63,759 bases of DNA from Candidatus Magasanikbacteria bacterium CG10_big_fil_rev_8_21_14_0_10_36_32 (GTDB lineage Bacteria; Patescibacteriota; Patescibacteriia; Magasanikbacterales; GWA2-37-8): the NCBI GenBank assembly GCA_002778465.1, contig PFBV01000004.1, positions 35,943 through 99,701 of the forward strand, given 5' to 3'. Shown one piece after another: positions 14,656-31,061 of the stretch. The notes under the pieces are model-generated. The model made no database searches. It was not told the origin of the DNA and saw nothing but the letters and a program-made list of their open reading frames with translations. Positions within the stretch are counted from its first letter, which is position 1; every line of letters begins with the position of its first letter. The position numbers and the translations under genes are program-made.

Positions 14656-14684
14656 TTGACTCCTTGCTTCAAATGTGATATATT
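14656..14684 (+). promoter_or_regulatory. sigma70-type promoter of the hrcA operon
   Basis: TTGACT (14656-61), a 17-nt spacer and TATATT (14679-84), with extended TGn at 14676-78. Confidence 0.7.
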
Positions 14685-14709
14685 ATCACTCAAAGGTTTA
14701 GAGTGATAA
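14683..14709. promoter_or_regulatory. CIRCE operator (variant)
   Basis: TTATCACTC-N9-GAGTGATAA is a perfect inverted repeat. The consensus is TTAGCACTC-N9-GAGTGCTAA. It overlaps the -10 and lies just upstream of hrcA. Confidence 0.85.
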
Positions 14710-17958: not shown

Positions 17959-18408
17959 ATGCCGGAACAAATTGCTGATTTAGCACAACGTATTGAAGTT
18001 ATTAAGTCAGAACGCAATCCATTAAATAAATATAGAGAATATATTAAGCTGATACAAAGTGAATTATCTGAAGAAGATTCTACTTTAGTGACTATTAATC
18101 CCGATGAATTAACTCAAACTGAGTTAGATATTTGGAATGAATTTTTTAATTTAATCGGTAAAATTGATAAAAATGCGTTTGAAAATCGTCGAGATGAATT
18201 GATTGTTGAGGCCGATGTACTTCTGAATAAAGTAAATGCTGATGGTGTAAACAAATCTTTTGTCGAATGGATGCGGAATCGGTTGACGATATTGGTTAGC
18301 GCCTTGCCAATAAAAAATTTTACTTGGGACAATGAAAATGGTCGGGGTTTTGGACAGTTGTTGGAGAAACAAAAAGAACGGTTATTTTATAATGATTTTA
18401 AGAATTAA
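17959..18408 (+). CDS. hypothetical protein inserted between dnaK and dnaJ
   Basis: 149-aa ORF on the same strand, tightly packed (dnaJ GTG starts 3 nt after its stop). No motif recognised. Confidence 0.5.
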   Translation: MPEQIADLAQRIEVIKSERNPLNKYREYIKLIQSELSEEDSTLVTINPDELTQTELDIWNEFFNLIGKIDKNAFENRRDELIVEADVLLNKVNADGVNKSFVEWMRNRLTILVSALPIKNFTWDNENGRGFGQLLEKQKERLFYNDFKN

Positions 18409-19679: not shown

Positions 19680-19708
19680 TTGACATATCTATTTAATTTT
19701 GTTATTTT
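19680..19708 (+). promoter_or_regulatory. sigma70-type promoter upstream of the GC-rich island gene
   Basis: TTGACA (19680-85), a 17-nt spacer including TGn, and TATTTT (19703-08), all in host-like AT-rich DNA. A CAGTGG/CCACTG hairpin at 19724-19745 lies in the leader. Confidence 0.45.
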
Positions 19709-19820
19709 AAACATATAAAATAACAGTGGTAAAATGAAGCCACTGATAAATATACAGTTCTTTACAATACAACGAATCTGCCCGAATCAAATATCGGACA
19801 GAAAATAGGAGGTAGTGAGT

Positions 19821-21968
19821 ATGTCTAAAAGCAAGAGTAATTTCATCGATAAGCTTTTGGGTAGTCAGACTCAGGTGGAGTTTTCCGATGAAGAGGAAAA
19901 TCTCCTGAATCTCATCCACGAGCGCGGTGGAAGATGCAACATCAAGGATCTTTCGCATCTCATGGACCAATCGGCAGCTGGAATTGTTGATCTGGCTCAG
20001 CAAGTGTGCGACAAGGGTGTCCGTATTTGGAAAGAGGACGGTGTTCTCTATCTGAGCGGCACTACTATCGAGTGTTTGCCCGAGCATGTTGTCATCAAGG
20101 AAAATAAGATTCGTATCGGCATCCTGGCTGACACGATGCTTGGTTCCAAGTACCAGCAATTGACCGGTCTCTACAGCGCATTTCAGATCGCCGAGCACGA
20201 AGGTGTGGACGTAATGTTCCATGTCGGAGTTTCGGCTGGAAAACCGACTCCGTCGAAGCAGGAGGAATTTTTTCTTTCCACCGCAGCGAAGCAGATCGAT
20301 TACATCGTCGCGAATTATCCGAAGTCGGATAAATTCAAGACGAAATTCGTTTCCGGTTTTCATGATATGCAGTGGAAGAAGGATAATTTGAATATCCTGG
20401 CTGAAGTTTGTTCGCGTCGCGATGATCTCGCTTACCGAGGTGATATTCAGTCTGACGTTTCCATCCGGAGGGGTCAGGCAAAAGATAAGAAGTGGCCCAT
20501 GCTCAAAGTCGTGTATCACGGTGGAGACACGAGCCCTTATTCCAAGTCGTATCCCGTACAGGGTCTCGTGGAGAACCTGATTCAGGATGTTGACGATTTG
20601 GTTGGAGAGAAGACTCCGGATGTCGTAGTGGTGGCAGGTCAGGGCGTTTACCTTGATCTTTCGGGTGGAAAAGTCCGAAACCTCTACGCGGTTCCCGGAA
20701 TGCGTCTTATTTCCCCCTCGATTCTTAGGCGGAAGAACCGCGCGGTTGCTCCGTCTATCGGTTTCGTTATCGTCACGGTGACCTTTGAAAAGGACGGCAC
20801 CTTCGCAGTGAAGGCCAAGTGCTATCCTCTCAAGGGCATCAAGAATGATTACCGCGAGAAGTTTTCCAAGAATCAGGAATTCCTTCGTGGTTTGAATTCT
20901 GACGAGCGTAAGGTTCTCAAGCTTTTGGAAGAGTCGCCCAAGTCAAGCGGTGAGCTTGAACAGGCGATTAATAAAAGTCCCGAGACGATTGATTCTATTA
21001 TTTTCGAACTTCAGAGCAAGGGTTTCATCATCAGTGAAATGAATGCGAGCAAGAATTTCAAGCTCAACTCTGTGTTCAAGAAGAAGTTCAACGTTCCTCC
21101 AATTAATTTTGATGATTACTTTTTCGAGACCGTTCGCGAAGGCGACATTTCGGATACGCACATCGGTAGTAATTCGGAACTCGTTCCGATTCAAGAAGAG
21201 GCATTCGAAATCTTTTCGAAAAGAGGAATCACCGTAGTTAATCACGGCGGAGACGTTTCCAACGGTTCACCGAAGCACGATGAGCATTTCAAGGGCGAGG
21301 TTCGTGAGTTCCGCGCCAGTCCGCTTATCTTTGACATCATCCGTCTCCTTCCGTCTCGCAAAGGCATTCAGATCTGTATGATTGCCGGCGATCACGATAG
21401 GTGGTTCTTGGATACCGTCGGTCTTGACCTTATTGCGCACGTGGCGCAAGCGCGTCCTGATATTAATTATCTTGGTATCCAGGATGGAGAGAGAAGGTCA
21501 AAGCGCATCATTACTCTTCTCAAGCACTTTAACTGGGGTACCGGCTATGCTCGGTCGTACAAACCCCAGCAGGTTATTGAGGACAGTATCCTGAAGGAAA
21601 TCGAGAAGGAGCCGGCAAGGTTCCGCGGTAAGGTTGTGGTTATTCTCTCCGGAGGCGGCCACGTCTACTGCTCGATGCTCTATAAGGGCGTTATCTTCAT
21701 TCTCCTTCCTTGTCTCCAGAGTCGGACCGGATTTATTAACGGACTCGGCAAGATCTCGGATGTGGGTTTCCTTATCCATTCCATAACTTATTCCAAGGAT
21801 GGAACTCTCACGAGATTCGGCACCGAATATTTTGATAGGACGGCGAAGGCTCTCGCGTTTCTTCGGAAGCGCAAGAATCTCCATCGTAATGTCAAAAAGA
21901 GCCGTGCTCGCGGTTACAAACCGCGTACGGTCAAGGCCAAAAGATCCGTTAAGAAGTCCAAGAAGTAA
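19821..21968 (+). CDS. tandem-duplicated [winged-helix + calcineurin-like metallophosphoesterase] protein with basic C-terminal tail; function unknown
   Basis: AGGAGG lies 7 nt upstream of the ATG. C-terminal half has DTH / GGDVSNG / GDHD / KH / GGGH in metallophosphoesterase motif order. N-terminal half aligns to it but reads DTM / VGVSAG / GFHD / GQG. About 50% GC with AAG, ATC, CTC, TTC codon bias. Confidence 0.8.
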   Translation: MSKSKSNFIDKLLGSQTQVEFSDEEENLLNLIHERGGRCNIKDLSHLMDQSAAGIVDLAQQVCDKGVRIWKEDGVLYLSGTTIECLPEHVVIKENKIRIGILADTMLGSKYQQLTGLYSAFQIAEHEGVDVMFHVGVSAGKPTPSKQEEFFLSTAAKQIDYIVANYPKSDKFKTKFVSGFHDMQWKKDNLNILAEVCSRRDDLAYRGDIQSDVSIRRGQAKDKKWPMLKVVYHGGDTSPYSKSYPVQGLVENLIQDVDDLVGEKTPDVVVVAGQGVYLDLSGGKVRNLYAVPGMRLISPSILRRKNRAVAPSIGFVIVTVTFEKDGTFAVKAKCYPLKGIKNDYREKFSKNQEFLRGLNSDERKVLKLLEESPKSSGELEQAINKSPETIDSIIFELQSKGFIISEMNASKNFKLNSVFKKKFNVPPINFDDYFFETVREGDISDTHIGSNSELVPIQEEAFEIFSKRGITVVNHGGDVSNGSPKHDEHFKGEVREFRASPLIFDIIRLLPSRKGIQICMIAGDHDRWFLDTVGLDLIAHVAQARPDINYLGIQDGERRSKRIITLLKHFNWGTGYARSYKPQQVIEDSILKEIEKEPARFRGKVVVILSGGGHVYCSMLYKGVIFILLPCLQSRTGFINGLGKISDVGFLIHSITYSKDGTLTRFGTEYFDRTAKALAFLRKRKNLHRNVKKSRARGYKPRTVKAKRSVKKSKK

Positions 21969-22018: not shown

Positions 22019-22048
22019 AACCCCGCAGTAATGCGGGGTTCTTATTTT
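22019..22048. terminator. bidirectional intrinsic terminator (island gene / rnhA)
   Basis: AACCCCGCA (22019-27), loop GTAA, TGCGGGGTT (22032-40). Both flanks are T/A-rich. Confidence 0.75.
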
Positions 22049-22049
22049 A

Positions 22050-22451
22050 TTATTTTTGTTTATCTAATGTTTCGTTTACTAATTTGTCAGCCTCAGTATT
22101 GTTTGCTCGTTCAGTATGTCGATAAGTCACTTTTTTAAATTGGGTGGCGGCGTTATACGCCTGAATGAATAATTTTTGCAGAGTTGGTTCTTTAACTTTG
22201 TATTCTTGTCTCATTTGTTTTACCACCAGTTCACTATCTAAAATACACTCAACTTCATCTGCATTAAATTCTTTGGCTTTTTTAAGTCCGGAAATTAAAG
22301 CTGCATACTCGGCATAATTATTAGTTTGTTCACCTAAATATTCTCCGTAGCCACAAATTATTTTTTGCTTTTCATCTTTAATGATCACTCCAATTGCAGC
22401 TGGTCCGGGATTGCCCCGTGCTCCGCCGTCAGTGTTAATTGTTAAACGCAT
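22050..22451 (-). CDS. rnhA: ribonuclease HI
   Basis: TDGGARGNPGPAA..., NNYAEY.AL, SELVVKQM, N..AD. 133 aa. Confidence 0.85.
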   Translation of the reverse strand: MRLTINTDGGARGNPGPAAIGVIIKDEKQKIICGYGEYLGEQTNNYAEYAALISGLKKAKEFNADEVECILDSELVVKQMRQEYKVKEPTLQKLFIQAYNAATQFKKVTYRHTERANNTEADKLVNETLDKQK

Positions 22452-30518: not shown

Positions 30519-30527
30519 TAAAATAAA

Positions 30528-30557
30528 AGCCCCGACCGAAGTCGGGGCTGGTTTTTT
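30528..30557. terminator. bidirectional intrinsic terminator
   Basis: AGCCCCGAC (30528-36), loop CGAA, GTCGGGGCT (30541-49), then GGTTTTTT. A-rich on the left. Confidence 0.8.
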
Positions 30558-30574
30558 GGAGAAAAAGGTGGCGA

Positions 30575-30926
30575 TCAGATGAATTCCCAGACGTGCTCGT
30601 AGTGGTCGCAGACCACGCAGAGGTCGATATCCTGGTCATCTGGTTTCTTTTGTAACTCTTTCCGCAGATGTTGCAGACCGCAGTTATGACTATCTTGTAC
30701 CGGAGCGTCCTTTTGCCGCAGCAGTGCGTATCACCCTTGACGGTCGAACCGAAGATGCCACGAACTGGCACGATGTCGATCTGTTCTGTTCCTTTTTGGG
30801 GAACTGGCCTGTGGTGTCCGGGAACCGTCTTGTTGGATTCGGGAACCATTGACGAACATCGGGCACATAGACATTTCTTTGCCGTGTTTTTCTCCTTGTT
30901 TTTAGGTTTCCTTTGAGGATTGCCAT
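30575..30926 (-). pseudogene. frameshifted CxxC-rich (zinc-ribbon-like) small ORF, or unannotated small gene, in a ~57% GC segment
   Basis: Minus-strand reading is split over three frames: MAILKGNLKTRRK.. / ..KKCLCARCSSMVPES..HCCGKRT..CNICGKSYK / ..KKPDDQDIDLCVVCDHYEHVWEFI*. The last stop, at 30575, is 25 nt before the terminator. Frame junctions coincide with A-runs. Confidence 0.3.
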
Positions 30927-31004
30927 GTTTTTAAAGAACTGAGTAGTTTAGTACATTTTGAGGGTTTTGTACAGGGTTTATTTAGGCGTTGGAAATTAGT
31001 AAAT

Positions 31005-31036
31005 AGAAATTAAAAACCTCGGCCATTCGCCGGGGT
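31005..31036. terminator. bidirectional intrinsic terminator
   Basis: AACCTCGGC (31005-13) pairs with GCCGGGGTT (31019-27) with one G-U pair. T-runs on both strands. Confidence 0.65.
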
Positions 31037-31061
31037 TTTTGTTTTTGTGTTTTTTGTGAAT

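What the first reader, a model, noticed from the sequence alone, without database searches (positions are those of the whole stretch)
19821..21968. Internal duplication: [wHTH + metallophosphoesterase] x2 with a dead N-terminal copy and a Lys/Arg tail
Self-alignment by eye shows the two halves are homologous. IRIGILADTMLGSKYQQL..VMFHVGVSAG aligns to REGDISDTHIGSNSEL..VVNHGGDVSNG. KFVSGFHDMQW aligns to CMIAGDHDRWF. LKVVYHGG..SYPVQGLVE..DVVVVAGQGVY aligns to ITLLKHFNWG..SYKPQQVIE..KVVVILSGGGHVY. IGFVIVTVTFEKDGT aligns to VGFLIHSITYSKDGT. Each half is preceded by a winged-helix-like segment (EENLLNLIHERGG.CNIKDLS.. and ERKVLKLLEESPKSSGELEQAI..). Only the C-terminal half keeps the calcineurin-like motif order DxH / GDxxN / G(D)HD / H / GH; the N-terminal half has lost the metal ligands. 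The protein ends in KKSRARGYKPRTVKAKRSVKKSKK, which suggests nucleic-acid binding. I do not recognise this architecture as a named family. A pseudo-enzyme/enzyme tandem with two DNA-binding modules would fit a nuclease or phosphodiesterase acting on nucleic acids or nucleotide signals (speculative).
Basis: partly seen in the sequence, partly recalled or inferred. Interest (0 to 1): 0.72.

Follow-up and report, generated by a model that had tools for sequence, protein, structure and literature searches.

The report
Dead-plus-live DP1-like phosphoesterase tandem protein
This gene from a tiny-genome (CPR) bacterium encodes two copies of a "DNA-binding domain plus phosphoesterase" unit, one catalytically dead and one nearly intact; it belongs to a large unnamed family whose enzyme domain most resembles the proofreading subunit of the archaeal replicative DNA polymerase, so it is probably a nucleic-acid-cutting enzyme of a kind nobody has yet studied.

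Summary
ORF 19821..21968 (+, 715 aa) is an internal duplication of a whole [winged-helix + metallophosphoesterase (MPE)] module (hhalign 99.9%, E 2.5e-37). Both halves fold as MPEs. The N copy has lost nearly all metal ligands in every lineage. The C copy keeps 6 of 7 metal-ligand positions (N->D at motif III; first His of GHxH is Gly).

New findings:
- The protein belongs to a large unnamed superfamily (2898 clusters at 50% identity).
- The superfamily occurs in three forms: single modules (common in phage DNA replication/nucleotide-metabolism modules), two adjacent translationally coupled genes (N-type then C-type, gut Bacilli), and the fused protein (CPR, some Bacilli).
- By sequence and by fold, the closest solved relative of the MPE domain is PolD small subunit DP1. 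It is not a DP1 family member: there is no OB fold, no DP2 partner, and scores are far below family cutoffs.

Best reading: a covalently linked pseudoenzyme/enzyme pair that acts as a metal-dependent nuclease or phosphodiesterase on DNA. Function is inferred, not shown.

Unexplained: in all 11 CPR loci this gene is the most depleted in A-ending codons among its neighbours.

Verdict: a real, uncharacterised new variant of a known kind. Interest is moderate.

The parts
19680..19708 (+). sigma-70-type promoter TTGACA-17 nt-(TG)TATTTT dedicated to this gene
   Evidence: 10 of 12 consensus matches with a TG extension, the best site in the region. Sequence read. A consensus match only; not shown experimentally.
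19700..19725 (+). 26-nt inverted repeat TGTTATTTT-N8-AAAATAACA overlapping the -10 box (operator-like, or the first leader hairpin)
   Evidence: the only such site in the window. Conserved at the same place in the sister contig L073 (1811-1836), with the arm pair TGTTAT/ATAACA changed to TGTTAA/TTAACA. Not found upstream of other CPR homologues.
19715..19820 (+). structured 5' leader of about 100 nt (hairpins at about 19726-19745 and 19778-19802) ending in SD AGGAGG (19808-19813)
   Evidence: MFE -27 kcal/mol for 19700-19830, z = -3.64, 0 of 200 shuffles fold as well. No Rfam family matches. The transcription start is inferred from the promoter.
19821..21968 (+). CDS, 715 aa (stop TAA 21966-21968): [wHTH - dead MPE] - [wHTH - MPE] - basic tail
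   Evidence: (P0001, 715 aa). AlphaFold2 model pLDDT 84.1, pTM 0.83.
19884..20060 (+). winged helix 1 (residues 24-82)
   Evidence: the N-module profile hits the wHTHs of Csa3, PH1932, AdcR and MntR (E 1e-3 to 1e-2). One search shows winged-helix topology. Aligns to wHTH2.
20103..20834 (+). N-terminal metallophosphoesterase-fold domain, catalytically degenerate (residues 97-340): ADTM for DxH, VGVSAG for GD, GFHD for GNHD, AGQGV for GHxH
   Evidence: motifs. MPE fold, with hits to the dead scaffolds Vps29 and Pol alpha/delta/epsilon B-subunits; the best query-normalised TM-scores go to DP1 (0.46-0.48); 169 bits against a profile of single-module relatives.
20889..21074 (+). winged helix 2 (residues 359-420)
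   Evidence: HTH_5, weak; Csa3 HTH, Lrs14, Sta1; CasR/CARF-HTH models, E 1e-6 to 1e-4; Ap3 wHTH.
21123..21839 (+). C-terminal metallophosphoesterase domain, DP1-like, presumed catalytic (residues 437-675). Motif I SDTH 21150-21161; II GD 21249-21254; III GDHD 21387-21398; IV H571 21525-21527; family motif SYKPQ 21555-21569; V/VI GGGH 21651-21662; DP1-like segment HVY..YKGV..LQSRTGF 21660-21734
   Evidence: Pfam Metallophos 21.6 bits, cutoff 21.5; phrog_7339; motifs; 209 bits against the singles profile; DP1 as closest relative of the family.
21840..21965 (+). C-terminal helix plus Lys/Arg-rich disordered tail (residues 676-717)
   Evidence: helix 676-700, pLDDT below 50 from 701; 14 K/R and 0 D/E in the last 30 aa; homologues are basic there but the sequence is not conserved.
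22019..22050 (+). intrinsic terminator (9-bp stem, 6 GC pairs, then a T-run) between this gene and the convergent RNase H gene
   Evidence: A consensus match only.

Best explanation
The gene encodes a covalently fused pseudoenzyme/enzyme pair from an uncharacterised family of winged-helix-linked, DP1-like metallophosphoesterases.

Shown here:
- An ancestral single module (wHTH + MPE with all seven canonical metal ligands) was duplicated once.
- The upstream copy (N-type) lost its metal site in every lineage.
- The downstream copy (C-type) stayed close to canonical.
- The two are encoded either as adjacent, translationally coupled genes or as one polypeptide.
- The window's gene has its own predicted promoter and terminator.

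Inferred:
- The two modules work as an obligate 1:1 asymmetric dimer with a single active site.
- The dead MPE acts as a scaffold or substrate-positioning partner, and the two winged helices (plus a basic tail) hold nucleic acid or a partner protein.
- The C-module is a divalent-metal-dependent (Mn/Fe-type) phosphodiesterase whose most likely substrate is DNA, i.e. a 3'-end exonuclease or single-strand nuclease like its nearest relative DP1.
- Its role would be DNA turnover: repair or recombination end-processing, or breakdown of DNA to nucleotides for salvage in organisms with reduced biosynthesis.
For: Architecture and duplication.

MPE fold of both halves, with a confident whole-chain model (pTM 0.83, which implies a defined arrangement of the modules).

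Three gene organisations. The split form is genuine: gene 1 ends in TAA or TAG in 20 of 23 loci, the two ORFs are in different frames in 18 of 23, and an SD lies inside the end of gene 1.

Single origin with a fixed N-then-C order. With CPR-only HMMs, Bacilli first modules prefer the N profile (fused 8/8, split 14/19), second modules prefer C (27/27), and all singles are C-like.

Ligand states:
- singles DHDNHDHHH, 11 of 14
- Bacilli C DHD-S-HDHHH, 26 of 27
- CPR C DHD-[D/N]-HDH-G-H, 10 of 10
- N modules dead everywhere

DP1 affinity:
- Profile of 55 C-type modules against PDB sequences: DP1 E 2.7e-13, MJ0936 5e-5, Mre11 0.04.
- 54 of 55 members hit NCBIfam DP1 model NF003118 (best 1.2e-18); 14 hit YfcE, 2 SbcD, 1 Mre11.
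- DP1 is the top Foldseek hit for the full model (E 1e-9).
- Phage homologues were auto-named 'DNA polymerase II small subunit'.

DNA-metabolism context of single-module relatives:
- L070: FEN-like exonuclease overlapping the gene start, then QueD, DnaC-like loader, DnaB, DnaG, RecA and SbcCD-like genes.
- L069: NrdD/G, NT5C, PD-(D/E)xK nuclease, PolB, ThyA.
- L039: Tk, NrdD/G, HNH, dUTPase.
- Best PHROG for all singles is phrog_7339 'DNA repair exonuclease'.
- Intein- or Hint-containing homologues exist (P0118; A0A8S5P6X8).
- An NT5C deoxyribonucleotidase lies immediately upstream in several Bacilli loci.

Lineages: fused and split forms were found in CPR and in uncultured gut Bacilli MAGs labelled Mycoplasma, Tenericutes or Erysipelotrichaceae.
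Against: No biochemical data exist for any family member, and MPE substrate specificity is notoriously labile.

The window's own C module deviates at the second metal site (Asn to Asp; first His of GHxH to Gly), so activity could be altered or lost. On its own it hits no DP1 model and passes Pfam Metallophos only marginally.

No neighbour is conserved across the family. CPR contexts are housekeeping genes (dnaJ, rplJ, Clp-like, groESL, isc), not repair genes.

One single sits in a sugar-biosynthesis cluster, and another between portal and capsid genes of a haloarchaeal virus.

The 'PHROG DNA repair exonuclease' label is itself inferred from homology.
Confidence: 0.5

Rival explanations
1. A one-component regulator or second-messenger phosphodiesterase. 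The winged helices bind operator DNA, and the MPE domain senses or degrades a nucleotide signal (cAMP, c-di-AMP, cyclic oligoadenylate). This would resemble BirA, NadR or Csa3, where an HTH is joined to a ligand or enzyme domain.
For: The wHTHs resemble Csa3/CasR, MarR, ArsR, TrmB and BirA-type HTHs. JGI labels homologues 'biotin operon repressor/predicted phosphodiesterase'. An inverted repeat overlaps the gene's own -10 box and is conserved in the sister genome with a compensating change. Some MPEs are cyclic-nucleotide phosphodiesterases; Rv0805 and GpdQ appear among the fold hits.
Against: No operator is conserved across CPR homologues, and the repeat occurs nowhere else in the window. None of about 70 loci has CRISPR, CBASS or other defence neighbours. 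PADLOC hits cover only the HTH. The MPE is much closer to DP1 than to CpdA or Rv0805. Phage singles sit in replication modules.
Confidence: 0.17
2. A non-catalytic scaffold. In the CPR subfamily both MPE modules are structural, like eukaryotic polymerase B-subunits or Vps29, and the protein tethers a partner (polymerase, helicase or chaperone client) to DNA.
For: All 10 CPR C modules lack the first His of GHxH, and 8 of 10 also replace the motif III Asn with Asp. The N module alone matches the dead scaffolds Vps29 and Pol alpha/delta/epsilon B-subunits. The DP1 lineage has been inactivated repeatedly (PMC7544198).
Against: Six of seven ligand positions plus the catalytic His527 are invariant across 21 homologues down to 25% identity (S446, D447, T448, H449, G479, D480, H527, H571, H616). 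That pattern is typical of a maintained active site. Asp can ligate metal in place of Asn.
Confidence: 0.12
3. A stress-linked dinucleoside-polyphosphate (Ap4A) hydrolase or Np4-RNA decapping enzyme, tied to the heat-shock response.
For: The gene lies next to three different chaperone systems in different CPR lineages: dnaJ upstream (window, L073), a Clp/Hsp100-like AAA+ gene downstream (L003, L009, L011), and groEL-groES downstream (L014). SapH, an Ap4A hydrolase MPE, is among the top fold hits. ApaH-type Ap4A hydrolases are MPEs, and Ap4A is a heat-shock alarmone (general knowledge, not tested here).
Against: The adjacency counts are small, perhaps 3 of about 7 independent contexts. The gene has its own promoter, and the only CIRCE operator in the window is upstream of hrcA. 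Sequence affinity is to DP1, not ApaH or SapH. Bacilli and phage contexts show no chaperone link.
Confidence: 0.08
4. A recently transferred or selfish nuclease gene. The sharp GC rise over the ORF would mark foreign DNA.
For: Gene GC is 0.485 against 0.359 for the window, with edges at the ORF boundaries. Neighbourhoods vary among homologues. Relatives are frequent in phages.
Against: The sister contig has the same orf149-dnaJ-target synteny, and DnaJ (76.2% identity) has diverged as much as the target (76.9%). The excess is seen in all 11 CPR loci, and gene GC tracks host GC. The window holds a single copy with no flanking mobile-element genes.
Confidence: 0.05

Closest known systems
PolD small subunit DP1 (archaeal 3'-5' proofreading exonuclease; COG1311 / NCBIfam PRK04036) and its inactivated eukaryotic descendants, the B-subunits of Pol alpha, delta and epsilon
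   Same: DP1 is the closest solved relative of the MPE domain by sequence profile (E 2.7e-13; 54 of 55 family members hit NF003118) and by fold. The family and DP1 share motifs I-III and the segment GH-x-H-V-Y..Y-[KR]-G-V...Q-x-Q-T-x-F after motif V. Both lineages have produced catalytically dead copies that persist as partners of an active component.
   Different: The MPE is preceded by a winged helix, not an OB fold. There is no DP2 or PolB C-terminal-domain partner, and the hosts are bacteria and phages. Scores lie far below every DP1 family cutoff (best 63 bits against 445). The region between motif III and motif V, with the family motifs R..D..Y.G and SY..Q, does not align to DP1. In this family the dead copy pairs with a live paralogue.
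YfcE / MJ0936 phosphodiesterases (COG0622, Pfam Metallophos_2) and Vps29
   Same: The next-best sequence relatives (MJ0936 E 5e-5; YfcE hit by 14 of 55 members). Divergent family members exceed the Pfam Metallophos_2 threshold. Vps29 is a precedent for a dead MPE used as a scaffold.
   Different: These are single-domain proteins of 160-190 aa, with no wHTH and no tandem or paired paralogue. Their natural substrates are unknown.
Mre11 / SbcD nucleases
   Same: MPE nucleases that act as dimers on DNA ends. They are among the fold hits, and the nearest phage family, phrog_7339, is labelled 'DNA repair exonuclease'.
   Different: Sequence similarity is weak (E 0.04-0.2). There is no capping domain and no adjacent Rad50/SbcC. 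In L070 a separate SbcCD-like pair coexists with the family member.
Mycobacteriophage cluster-A MPEs (Bxb1 gp47 recombination directionality factor, D29 gp66, A10ZJ24 gp48 DNA-degrading MPE; PMC12287305)
   Same: Phage MPEs located in DNA replication modules. One has demonstrated nuclease activity on DNA, and one has a non-catalytic role.
   Different: They are not specifically related: hhalign of Bxb1 gp47 against the family gives probability 28%, covering only motifs I-III. They have no wHTH, and they were not found by tblastn.
Active/inactive paralogue heterodimers of nucleic-acid enzymes (e.g. trypanosome editosome RNase III pairs, PMC9508840; Tad2/Tad3 deaminase, PMC8217354)
   Same: The same evolutionary logic: a homodimeric nucleic-acid enzyme duplicates, and one copy loses catalysis but stays an obligate partner.
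   Different: Unrelated folds. Here the pair also exists as a single fused chain.

Membership tests
Metallophosphoesterase (calcineurin-like) superfamily | Four-layer beta-sandwich MPE fold | tested here: met
   The full model and the N half modelled alone both match many solved MPEs at Foldseek probability 1.00.
Metallophosphoesterase (calcineurin-like) superfamily | Motifs DxH / GDxxD / GNH[DE] / H / GHxH supplying seven metal ligands | tested here: inconclusive
   The C module keeps 6 of 7 ligand positions, with Asn to Asp at motif III and the first His of GHxH replaced by Gly. The N module keeps only the motif I Asp (plus the motif IV His in this protein) and the non-ligand motif III His-Asp.
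Metallophosphoesterase (calcineurin-like) superfamily | Pfam PF00149 score above the gathering threshold | tested here: met
   21.6 bits against a 21.5 cutoff, C module only, which is marginal. Single-module relatives score 25-48 bits.
Metallophosphoesterase (calcineurin-like) superfamily | Divalent-metal-dependent phosphoester hydrolysis | not testable with these tools
   Needs biochemistry.
PolD DP1 / polymerase B-subunit family (COG1311, PRK04036) | The MPE domain is most similar to DP1 among all MPEs | tested here: met
   True at family level. The window's C module alone gives no DP1 hit but belongs to the family at 209 bits.
PolD DP1 / polymerase B-subunit family (COG1311, PRK04036) | OB-fold domain preceding the MPE domain | tested here: not met
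   A winged helix occupies that position in both modules.
PolD DP1 / polymerase B-subunit family (COG1311, PRK04036) | Score above the curated NCBIfam cutoffs | tested here: not met
   Best 63 bits against a cutoff of 445.
PolD DP1 / polymerase B-subunit family (COG1311, PRK04036) | Partnership with DP2 or a PolB C-terminal zinc-finger domain | tested here: not met
   No DP2 in any of about 70 neighbourhoods. Hosts are bacteria and phages. The one nearby PolB (L069) has its own exonuclease domains.
YfcE / MJ0936 (Pfam PF12850, TIGR00040) | Score above family thresholds; compact single-domain enzyme of about 160-190 aa | tested here: not met
   The window protein has no PF12850 hit. YfcE hits in relatives lie below the 56-bit cutoff. 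The architecture differs.
Mre11 / SbcD | Nuclease plus capping domain, with an adjacent Rad50/SbcC ATPase | tested here: not met
   E 0.04-0.2 to Mre11, SbcD hit in 2 of 55 members, no SbcC neighbour.
Csa3 / CARF-HTH regulators | CARF ligand-binding domain joined to the wHTH | tested here: not met
   Only the HTH portion of the Csa3/CasR models matches: model positions about 122-217, covering protein residues 347-425.
Winged helix-turn-helix DNA-binding domains | alpha1-beta1-alpha2-alpha3-beta2-beta3 topology and similarity to known wHTH families | tested here: met
   The model has this topology at residues 25-80 and 362-417. Sequence hits are weak but consistent. DNA binding itself was not tested.

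The most novel reading that the evidence does not exclude
This unnamed wHTH-MPE superfamily would be the missing non-polymerase sister group of PolD DP1 and the eukaryotic polymerase B-subunits. That would make it a living model of the free-standing exonuclease recruited to become the archaeal proofreading subunit. It would also have independently repeated the B-subunit story of catalytic death with retention as an obligate partner.

In CPR bacteria and reduced gut Bacilli, the dead/live pair would be a dedicated single-active-site DNA 3'-end exonuclease, used for repair or for converting imported DNA into nucleotides.

The CPR-specific purge of A-ending codons would reflect selection acting on the gene's own nucleic acid, for example self-avoidance of the enzyme's preferred substrate.
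Probability: 0.25. Interest if true: 0.72.

Novelty: new variant of a known kind. Interest (0 to 1): 0.55.

Why it matters
1. It defines a large family with no curated model, no name and no experiment behind it: 2898 clusters at 50% identity, found in CPR, Bacilli, other bacteria, some archaeal MAGs and many phages. It is retained even in very small CPR genomes.

2. It is a clean natural "Rosetta stone". The same dead/live paralogue pair occurs as single-module ancestors, as coupled two-gene operons and as a fusion. That predicts a testable obligate asymmetric dimer with one active site.

3. Its enzyme domain is the nearest relative of DP1 found outside polymerase holoenzymes. This bears on where the archaeal and eukaryotic polymerase small subunit came from.

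4. If it is the nuclease that feeds DNA into nucleotide salvage, it would fill a gap in the physiology of organisms that cannot make nucleotides.

5. The gene-specific avoidance of A-ending codons across a whole subfamily is an unexplained signal worth testing on complete genomes.

Tried and rejected
- **Conserved operator or regulon.** k-mer and palindrome comparison of nine CPR upstream regions found only a loose AGTTCNTTNACAA-like element. It contains a -35-like hexamer, also occurs upstream of other window genes (8 near-matches against 2.3 expected), and is exact in only three loci. I judged it a general promoter feature. The -10-overlapping inverted repeat is shared only with the sister contig.
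- **Known RNA element in the leader.** No Rfam family anywhere in the window.
- **HrcA/CIRCE control.** The only CIRCE lies upstream of hrcA.
- **Defence-system membership.** PADLOC matches only the HTH, and there are no defence neighbours.
- **Relation to mycobacteriophage gp47-type MPEs.** Rejected.
- **Antisense coding.** The 270-aa ORF at 19707..20519 (-) and three others all lie in the one antisense frame whose stops correspond to sense TTA/CTA/TCA codons. They are a by-product of A3 depletion.
- **"Split" genes as an artefact of TGA=Trp recoding or frameshift.** Rejected.
- **Recent horizontal transfer as the cause of the GC anomaly.** Not supported: synteny and divergence match between DnaJ and the target in the sister contig.
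- **Expression-linked codon bias.** dnaK, grpE and dnaJ in the window have ordinary GC3.
- **Searches that gave little.** The viral-contig scan with alignment A2 failed for lack of a conserved stretch. Isolated phages and viruses yielded a single homologue, Halorubrum virus BLv36 ORF43, in an uninformative position.


Full report
**Observation**

The finding sits on a real ORF. The ORF listing gives 19815..21968 from a GTG. The ATG at 19821 lies 7-8 nt downstream of an AGGAGG Shine-Dalgarno, and it gives the 715-aa length of database cluster P0001. Residue numbers here count from the GTG (717 aa); subtract 2 for the ATG form.

The two halves are homologous far beyond chance:
- BLASTP of residues 1-345 against 346-717 gives 60.1 bits, E 1e-14 and 26% identity over 244 residues. 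Three hundred shuffles of the C half give 17.5 +/- 1.8 bits, maximum 23.5.
- With 21 homologues, a profile-profile comparison of the halves gives 99.94% probability, E 2.5e-37, over 303 columns.

**Anatomy of the locus**

The gene looks like a self-contained transcription unit (all elements are consensus matches or predictions):
- A strong sigma-70-type promoter, TTGACA-17-TG-TATTTT, at 19680-19708.
- A 26-nt inverted repeat overlapping the -10 box, at 19700-19725.
- A leader of about 100 nt predicted to be unusually structured (MFE -27 kcal/mol, z -3.64).
- An intrinsic terminator at 22019-22040, shared with the convergent RNase H gene.

Upstream lies a CIRCE-controlled hrcA-grpE-dnaK-orf149-dnaJ cluster.

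The AlphaFold2 model built from 21 sequences is confident (pLDDT 84.1, pTM 0.83). It shows winged helix 1 (about 24-82), MPE 1 (97-340), a short conserved linker, winged helix 2 (359-420), MPE 2 (437-675), a long helix (676-700) and a disordered Lys/Arg tail.

**Both halves are MPE folds; one is dead**

- Pfam detects Metallophos only in the C half, and only marginally (21.6 against 21.5 bits).
- The N half modelled alone (pLDDT 85, pTM 0.83) matches purple acid phosphatases, SapH, Vps29, PolD DP1 (the best query-normalised TM-scores, 0.46-0.48) and the eukaryotic Pol alpha/delta/epsilon B-subunits. So it is an MPE fold that resembles known catalytically dead MPE scaffolds.
- Across the family, the C module keeps S446-D447-T448-H449, G479-D480, H527, H571 and H616 invariant.
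- The N module has D-T-[ILMVY] for DxH, V/I for the motif II Asp, [FYH]-H-D for N-H-D and G-Q-G for GHxH.
All 10 CPR homologues have Gly in place of the first His of GHxH, and 8 of 10 have Asp in place of the motif III Asn.

**The family**

About 28 close homologues (50-77% identity, 690-730 aa) come from Parcubacteria/CPR-type sources. A divergent group (about 25% identity) comes from uncultured gut Bacilli.

An exhaustive profile search finds 2898 cluster representatives at 50% identity (940 at E <= 1e-30). Many are proteins of 310-440 aa that match only one module.

I called ORFs and scored all fetched loci with N-module and C-module HMMs. Three organisations emerged:
- **Fused N+C proteins** in CPR and some Bacilli.
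- **Two adjacent genes**, N-type then C-type, in about two dozen Bacilli MAGs.
- **True singles** (Shapirobacteria, a DPANN archaeon MAG, other phyla, phage-like contigs).

The split form is not an artefact. Gene 1 ends in TAA or TAG in 20 of 23 loci. The two ORFs are in different frames in 18 of 23. A GGAGG-like site inside the end of gene 1 precedes the ATG of gene 2, with a gap of -14 to +10 nt, which is the pattern of translational coupling.

With HMMs built from CPR sequences only, Bacilli first modules prefer the N profile and second modules the C profile, while every single is C-like. This argues for one ancient duplication with a fixed gene order.

Singles carry the full canonical ligand set (DHDNHDHHH in 11 of 14). 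Bacilli C modules change only the Asn (to Ser). N modules are dead in all lineages.

A profile of singles that excludes the window scores the window's N module at 169 bits and its C module at 209 bits.

**Closest known relatives**

- A profile of 55 C-type modules searched against all PDB sequences finds PolD small subunit DP1 first (E 2.7e-13 to 9e-11). MJ0936 follows at 5e-5 and Mre11 at 0.04-0.2.
- The DP1 match covers motifs I-III and a distinctive segment after motif V. The window reads HVYCSMLYKGVIFILLPCLQSRTGF; DP1 reads HVYDAVVYRGVQLVNSATWQAQTEF.
- Fifty-four of the 55 members hit NCBIfam's DP1 model NF003118 (best 1.2e-18). Fourteen hit YfcE, two SbcD and one Mre11.
- DP1 is also the top Foldseek hit of the full model (E about 1e-9).
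- JGI and metagenomic phage annotations occasionally call homologues 'DNA polymerase II small subunit'.

All these scores lie far below the DP1 family cutoffs. A winged helix replaces the OB fold, and no DP2-like partner exists. So this is a relative of DP1, not a member of its family. Reviews of DP1 and B-subunit evolution that I read do not mention such bacterial or phage relatives (PMC7281927, PMC7544198).

Mycobacteriophage MPEs such as Bxb1 gp47 are not specifically related (hhalign probability 28%).

**Functional clues**

No neighbour is conserved across the family. Single-module relatives repeatedly sit in phage-type DNA replication or nucleotide-metabolism modules:
- L070: FEN-like exonuclease, the gene, QueD, DnaC-like loader, DnaB, DnaG, RecA and SbcCD-like genes.
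- L069: NrdD/G, NT5C, a PD-(D/E)xK nuclease, PolB, ThyA.
- L039: Tk, NrdD/G, HNH, dUTPase.

Other clues:
- The best PHROG for all singles is phrog_7339, labelled 'DNA repair exonuclease'. That label is itself inferred from homology.
- Intein-bearing homologues exist.
- In Bacilli, an NT5C-type deoxyribonucleotidase often lies just upstream.
- In CPR the gene neighbours housekeeping genes. It lies next to three different chaperone systems in different lineages: dnaJ, a Clp/Hsp100-like gene, and groESL. This is suggestive but the numbers are small.

**Proposed mechanism**

Shown:
- One module was duplicated once.
- The upstream copy lost catalysis everywhere.
- The pair is kept together as coupled genes or as a fusion.
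- The downstream copy retains a nearly complete binuclear site.
- The whole-chain model has high pTM, implying a fixed arrangement of the modules.

Inferred:
- The two modules form an obligate asymmetric dimer with one active site.
- The dead MPE and the winged helices position a nucleic-acid substrate or a partner.
- The enzyme is a metal-dependent nuclease or phosphodiesterase acting on DNA 3' ends or single strands, like DP1.
- Its role is DNA repair or recombination, or nucleotide salvage. Salvage would suit lineages with reduced biosynthesis and would fit the NT5C and phage nucleotide-metabolism contexts.

I put about 0.5 on this overall. The architectural part is near-certain; the DNA substrate is roughly even odds.

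Rivals:
- HTH-enzyme regulator or second-messenger phosphodiesterase, 0.17.
- Purely structural scaffold in CPR, 0.12.
- Ap4A or Np4-cap hydrolase linked to heat shock, 0.08.
- Recently transferred selfish nuclease, 0.05.

**Unexplained: the codon signature**

- The ORF's GC is 0.485 against 0.359 for the rest of the window, with sharp edges at the ORF boundaries.
- The excess is almost entirely at third codon positions and is mainly a loss of A-ending codons. A3 is 0.11 against 0.31. AAG is 78% against 15%, GAG 57% against 14%, and CAG 81% against 30%.
- In all 11 CPR loci the gene has the lowest A3 of every neighbouring ORF (2-56 ORFs per locus). Bacilli and single-module relatives show no such trend.
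- Gene GC tracks host GC with a positive offset.
- The sister contig keeps the same orf149-dnaJ-target synteny, and DnaJ (76.2%) has diverged as much as the target (76.9%). Yet its anomaly is only mild: GC 0.416, A3 0.24.

Simple recent transfer and ordinary expression-linked bias therefore do not explain it. The long antisense ORFs are a by-product. I have no tested explanation.

**Novelty and verdict**

The fold and superfamily are known. The tandem dead/live wHTH-MPE architecture, its split and fused forms, and the family's specific affinity to DP1 appear undescribed: there is no curated model, no name and no paper in the library searched.

I rate it a new variant of a known kind, of moderate interest (0.55). 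It is solid and testable, with an evolutionary angle on polymerase small subunits, but it has no demonstrated function.

Noticed in passing
window 19821-21968; loci L001, L003, L005, L008-L014: Gene-specific depletion of A-ending codons (A3 0.11 against 0.31; GC3 0.57 against a median of 0.30). In all 11 CPR loci the gene has the lowest A3 of all neighbouring ORFs. The trend is absent in Bacilli and single-module relatives and weak in the syntenic sister contig L073. The cause is unknown.
   Followed up: partly
window 19707-20519 (-), 20943-21245 (-), 21267-21449 (-), 21498-21884 (-): Four long antisense ORFs (270, 100, 60 and 128 aa) inside the gene. All lie in the one antisense frame whose stop codons correspond to sense TTA/CTA/TCA codons, so they are explained by the A3 depletion and are not evidence of an antisense gene.
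   Followed up: yes
window 19700-19802; L073 1811-1930: Structured leader with three predicted hairpins (z -3.6) and an inverted repeat overlapping the -10 box. It is conserved in the sister genome with compensating changes, and no Rfam family matches. It may be an operator or a regulatory leader.
   Followed up: partly
window 17959-18408: A 149-aa ORF with no meaningful Pfam hit sits between dnaK and dnaJ. It is also present at the same position in sister contig L073 (40% identity), so it looks like a lineage-specific member of the dnaK operon.
   Followed up: partly
window 14683-14709: A CIRCE-like HrcA operator (TTATCACTC-N9-GAGTGATAA, 2 mismatches) overlaps the mechanically called GTG start of hrcA (14703). 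The real hrcA start is probably further downstream.
   Followed up: partly
window 30520-31060: A GC-rich gap of about 540 bp between rplI and the next gene. It holds a probably spurious 114-aa ORF (GC3 0.60). There is no tRNA or tmRNA, and Rfam gives only noise-level hits. It could hold a divergent non-coding RNA.
   Followed up: partly
window 1-63759: No tRNA, rRNA or any Rfam family at gathering score in 63.7 kb. GC skew is positive almost throughout, with a short reversal at about 44-48 kb.
   Followed up: no
L003, L009, L011 (Clp/Hsp100-like gene at +1 or +2), L014 (groEL-groES at +1 and +2), window and L073 (dnaJ at -1): The CPR gene lies next to three different chaperone systems in different lineages. 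This may indicate a stress-regulon link, but there are too few independent contexts to be sure.
   Followed up: partly
L024, L026-28, L032-33, L041-42, L045-47, L049-52, L054, L056-63: In gut Bacilli MAGs the N-type and C-type modules are separate genes with a gap of -14 to +10 nt, and an SD lies inside the end of gene 1. An NT5C or HAD-like 5'-nucleotidase gene lies immediately upstream in about 16 Bacilli loci (both fused and split forms).
   Followed up: yes
L039, L040, L043: Near-identical phage-like contigs (Tk, a split NrdD with GIY-YIG/HNH-like inserts, NrdG, dUTPase, a Thg1-like gene) are binned into MAGs labelled Clostridia, Bacilli and Methanobrevibacter. This is probably one phage mis-binned into several MAGs.
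   Followed up: no
L067 5806-6966 (Halorubrum tailed virus BLv36 ORF43): The only homologue in an isolated virus lies between the portal and capsid/cement genes, not in a replication module. It is annotated as a hypothetical protein.
   Followed up: partly
P0118, P0294; BFVD A0A8S5P6X8: Some single-module relatives carry an intein/Hint domain, and one is fused to a terminase small-subunit DNA-binding domain. These are further hints of phage DNA-metabolism roles.
   Followed up: no
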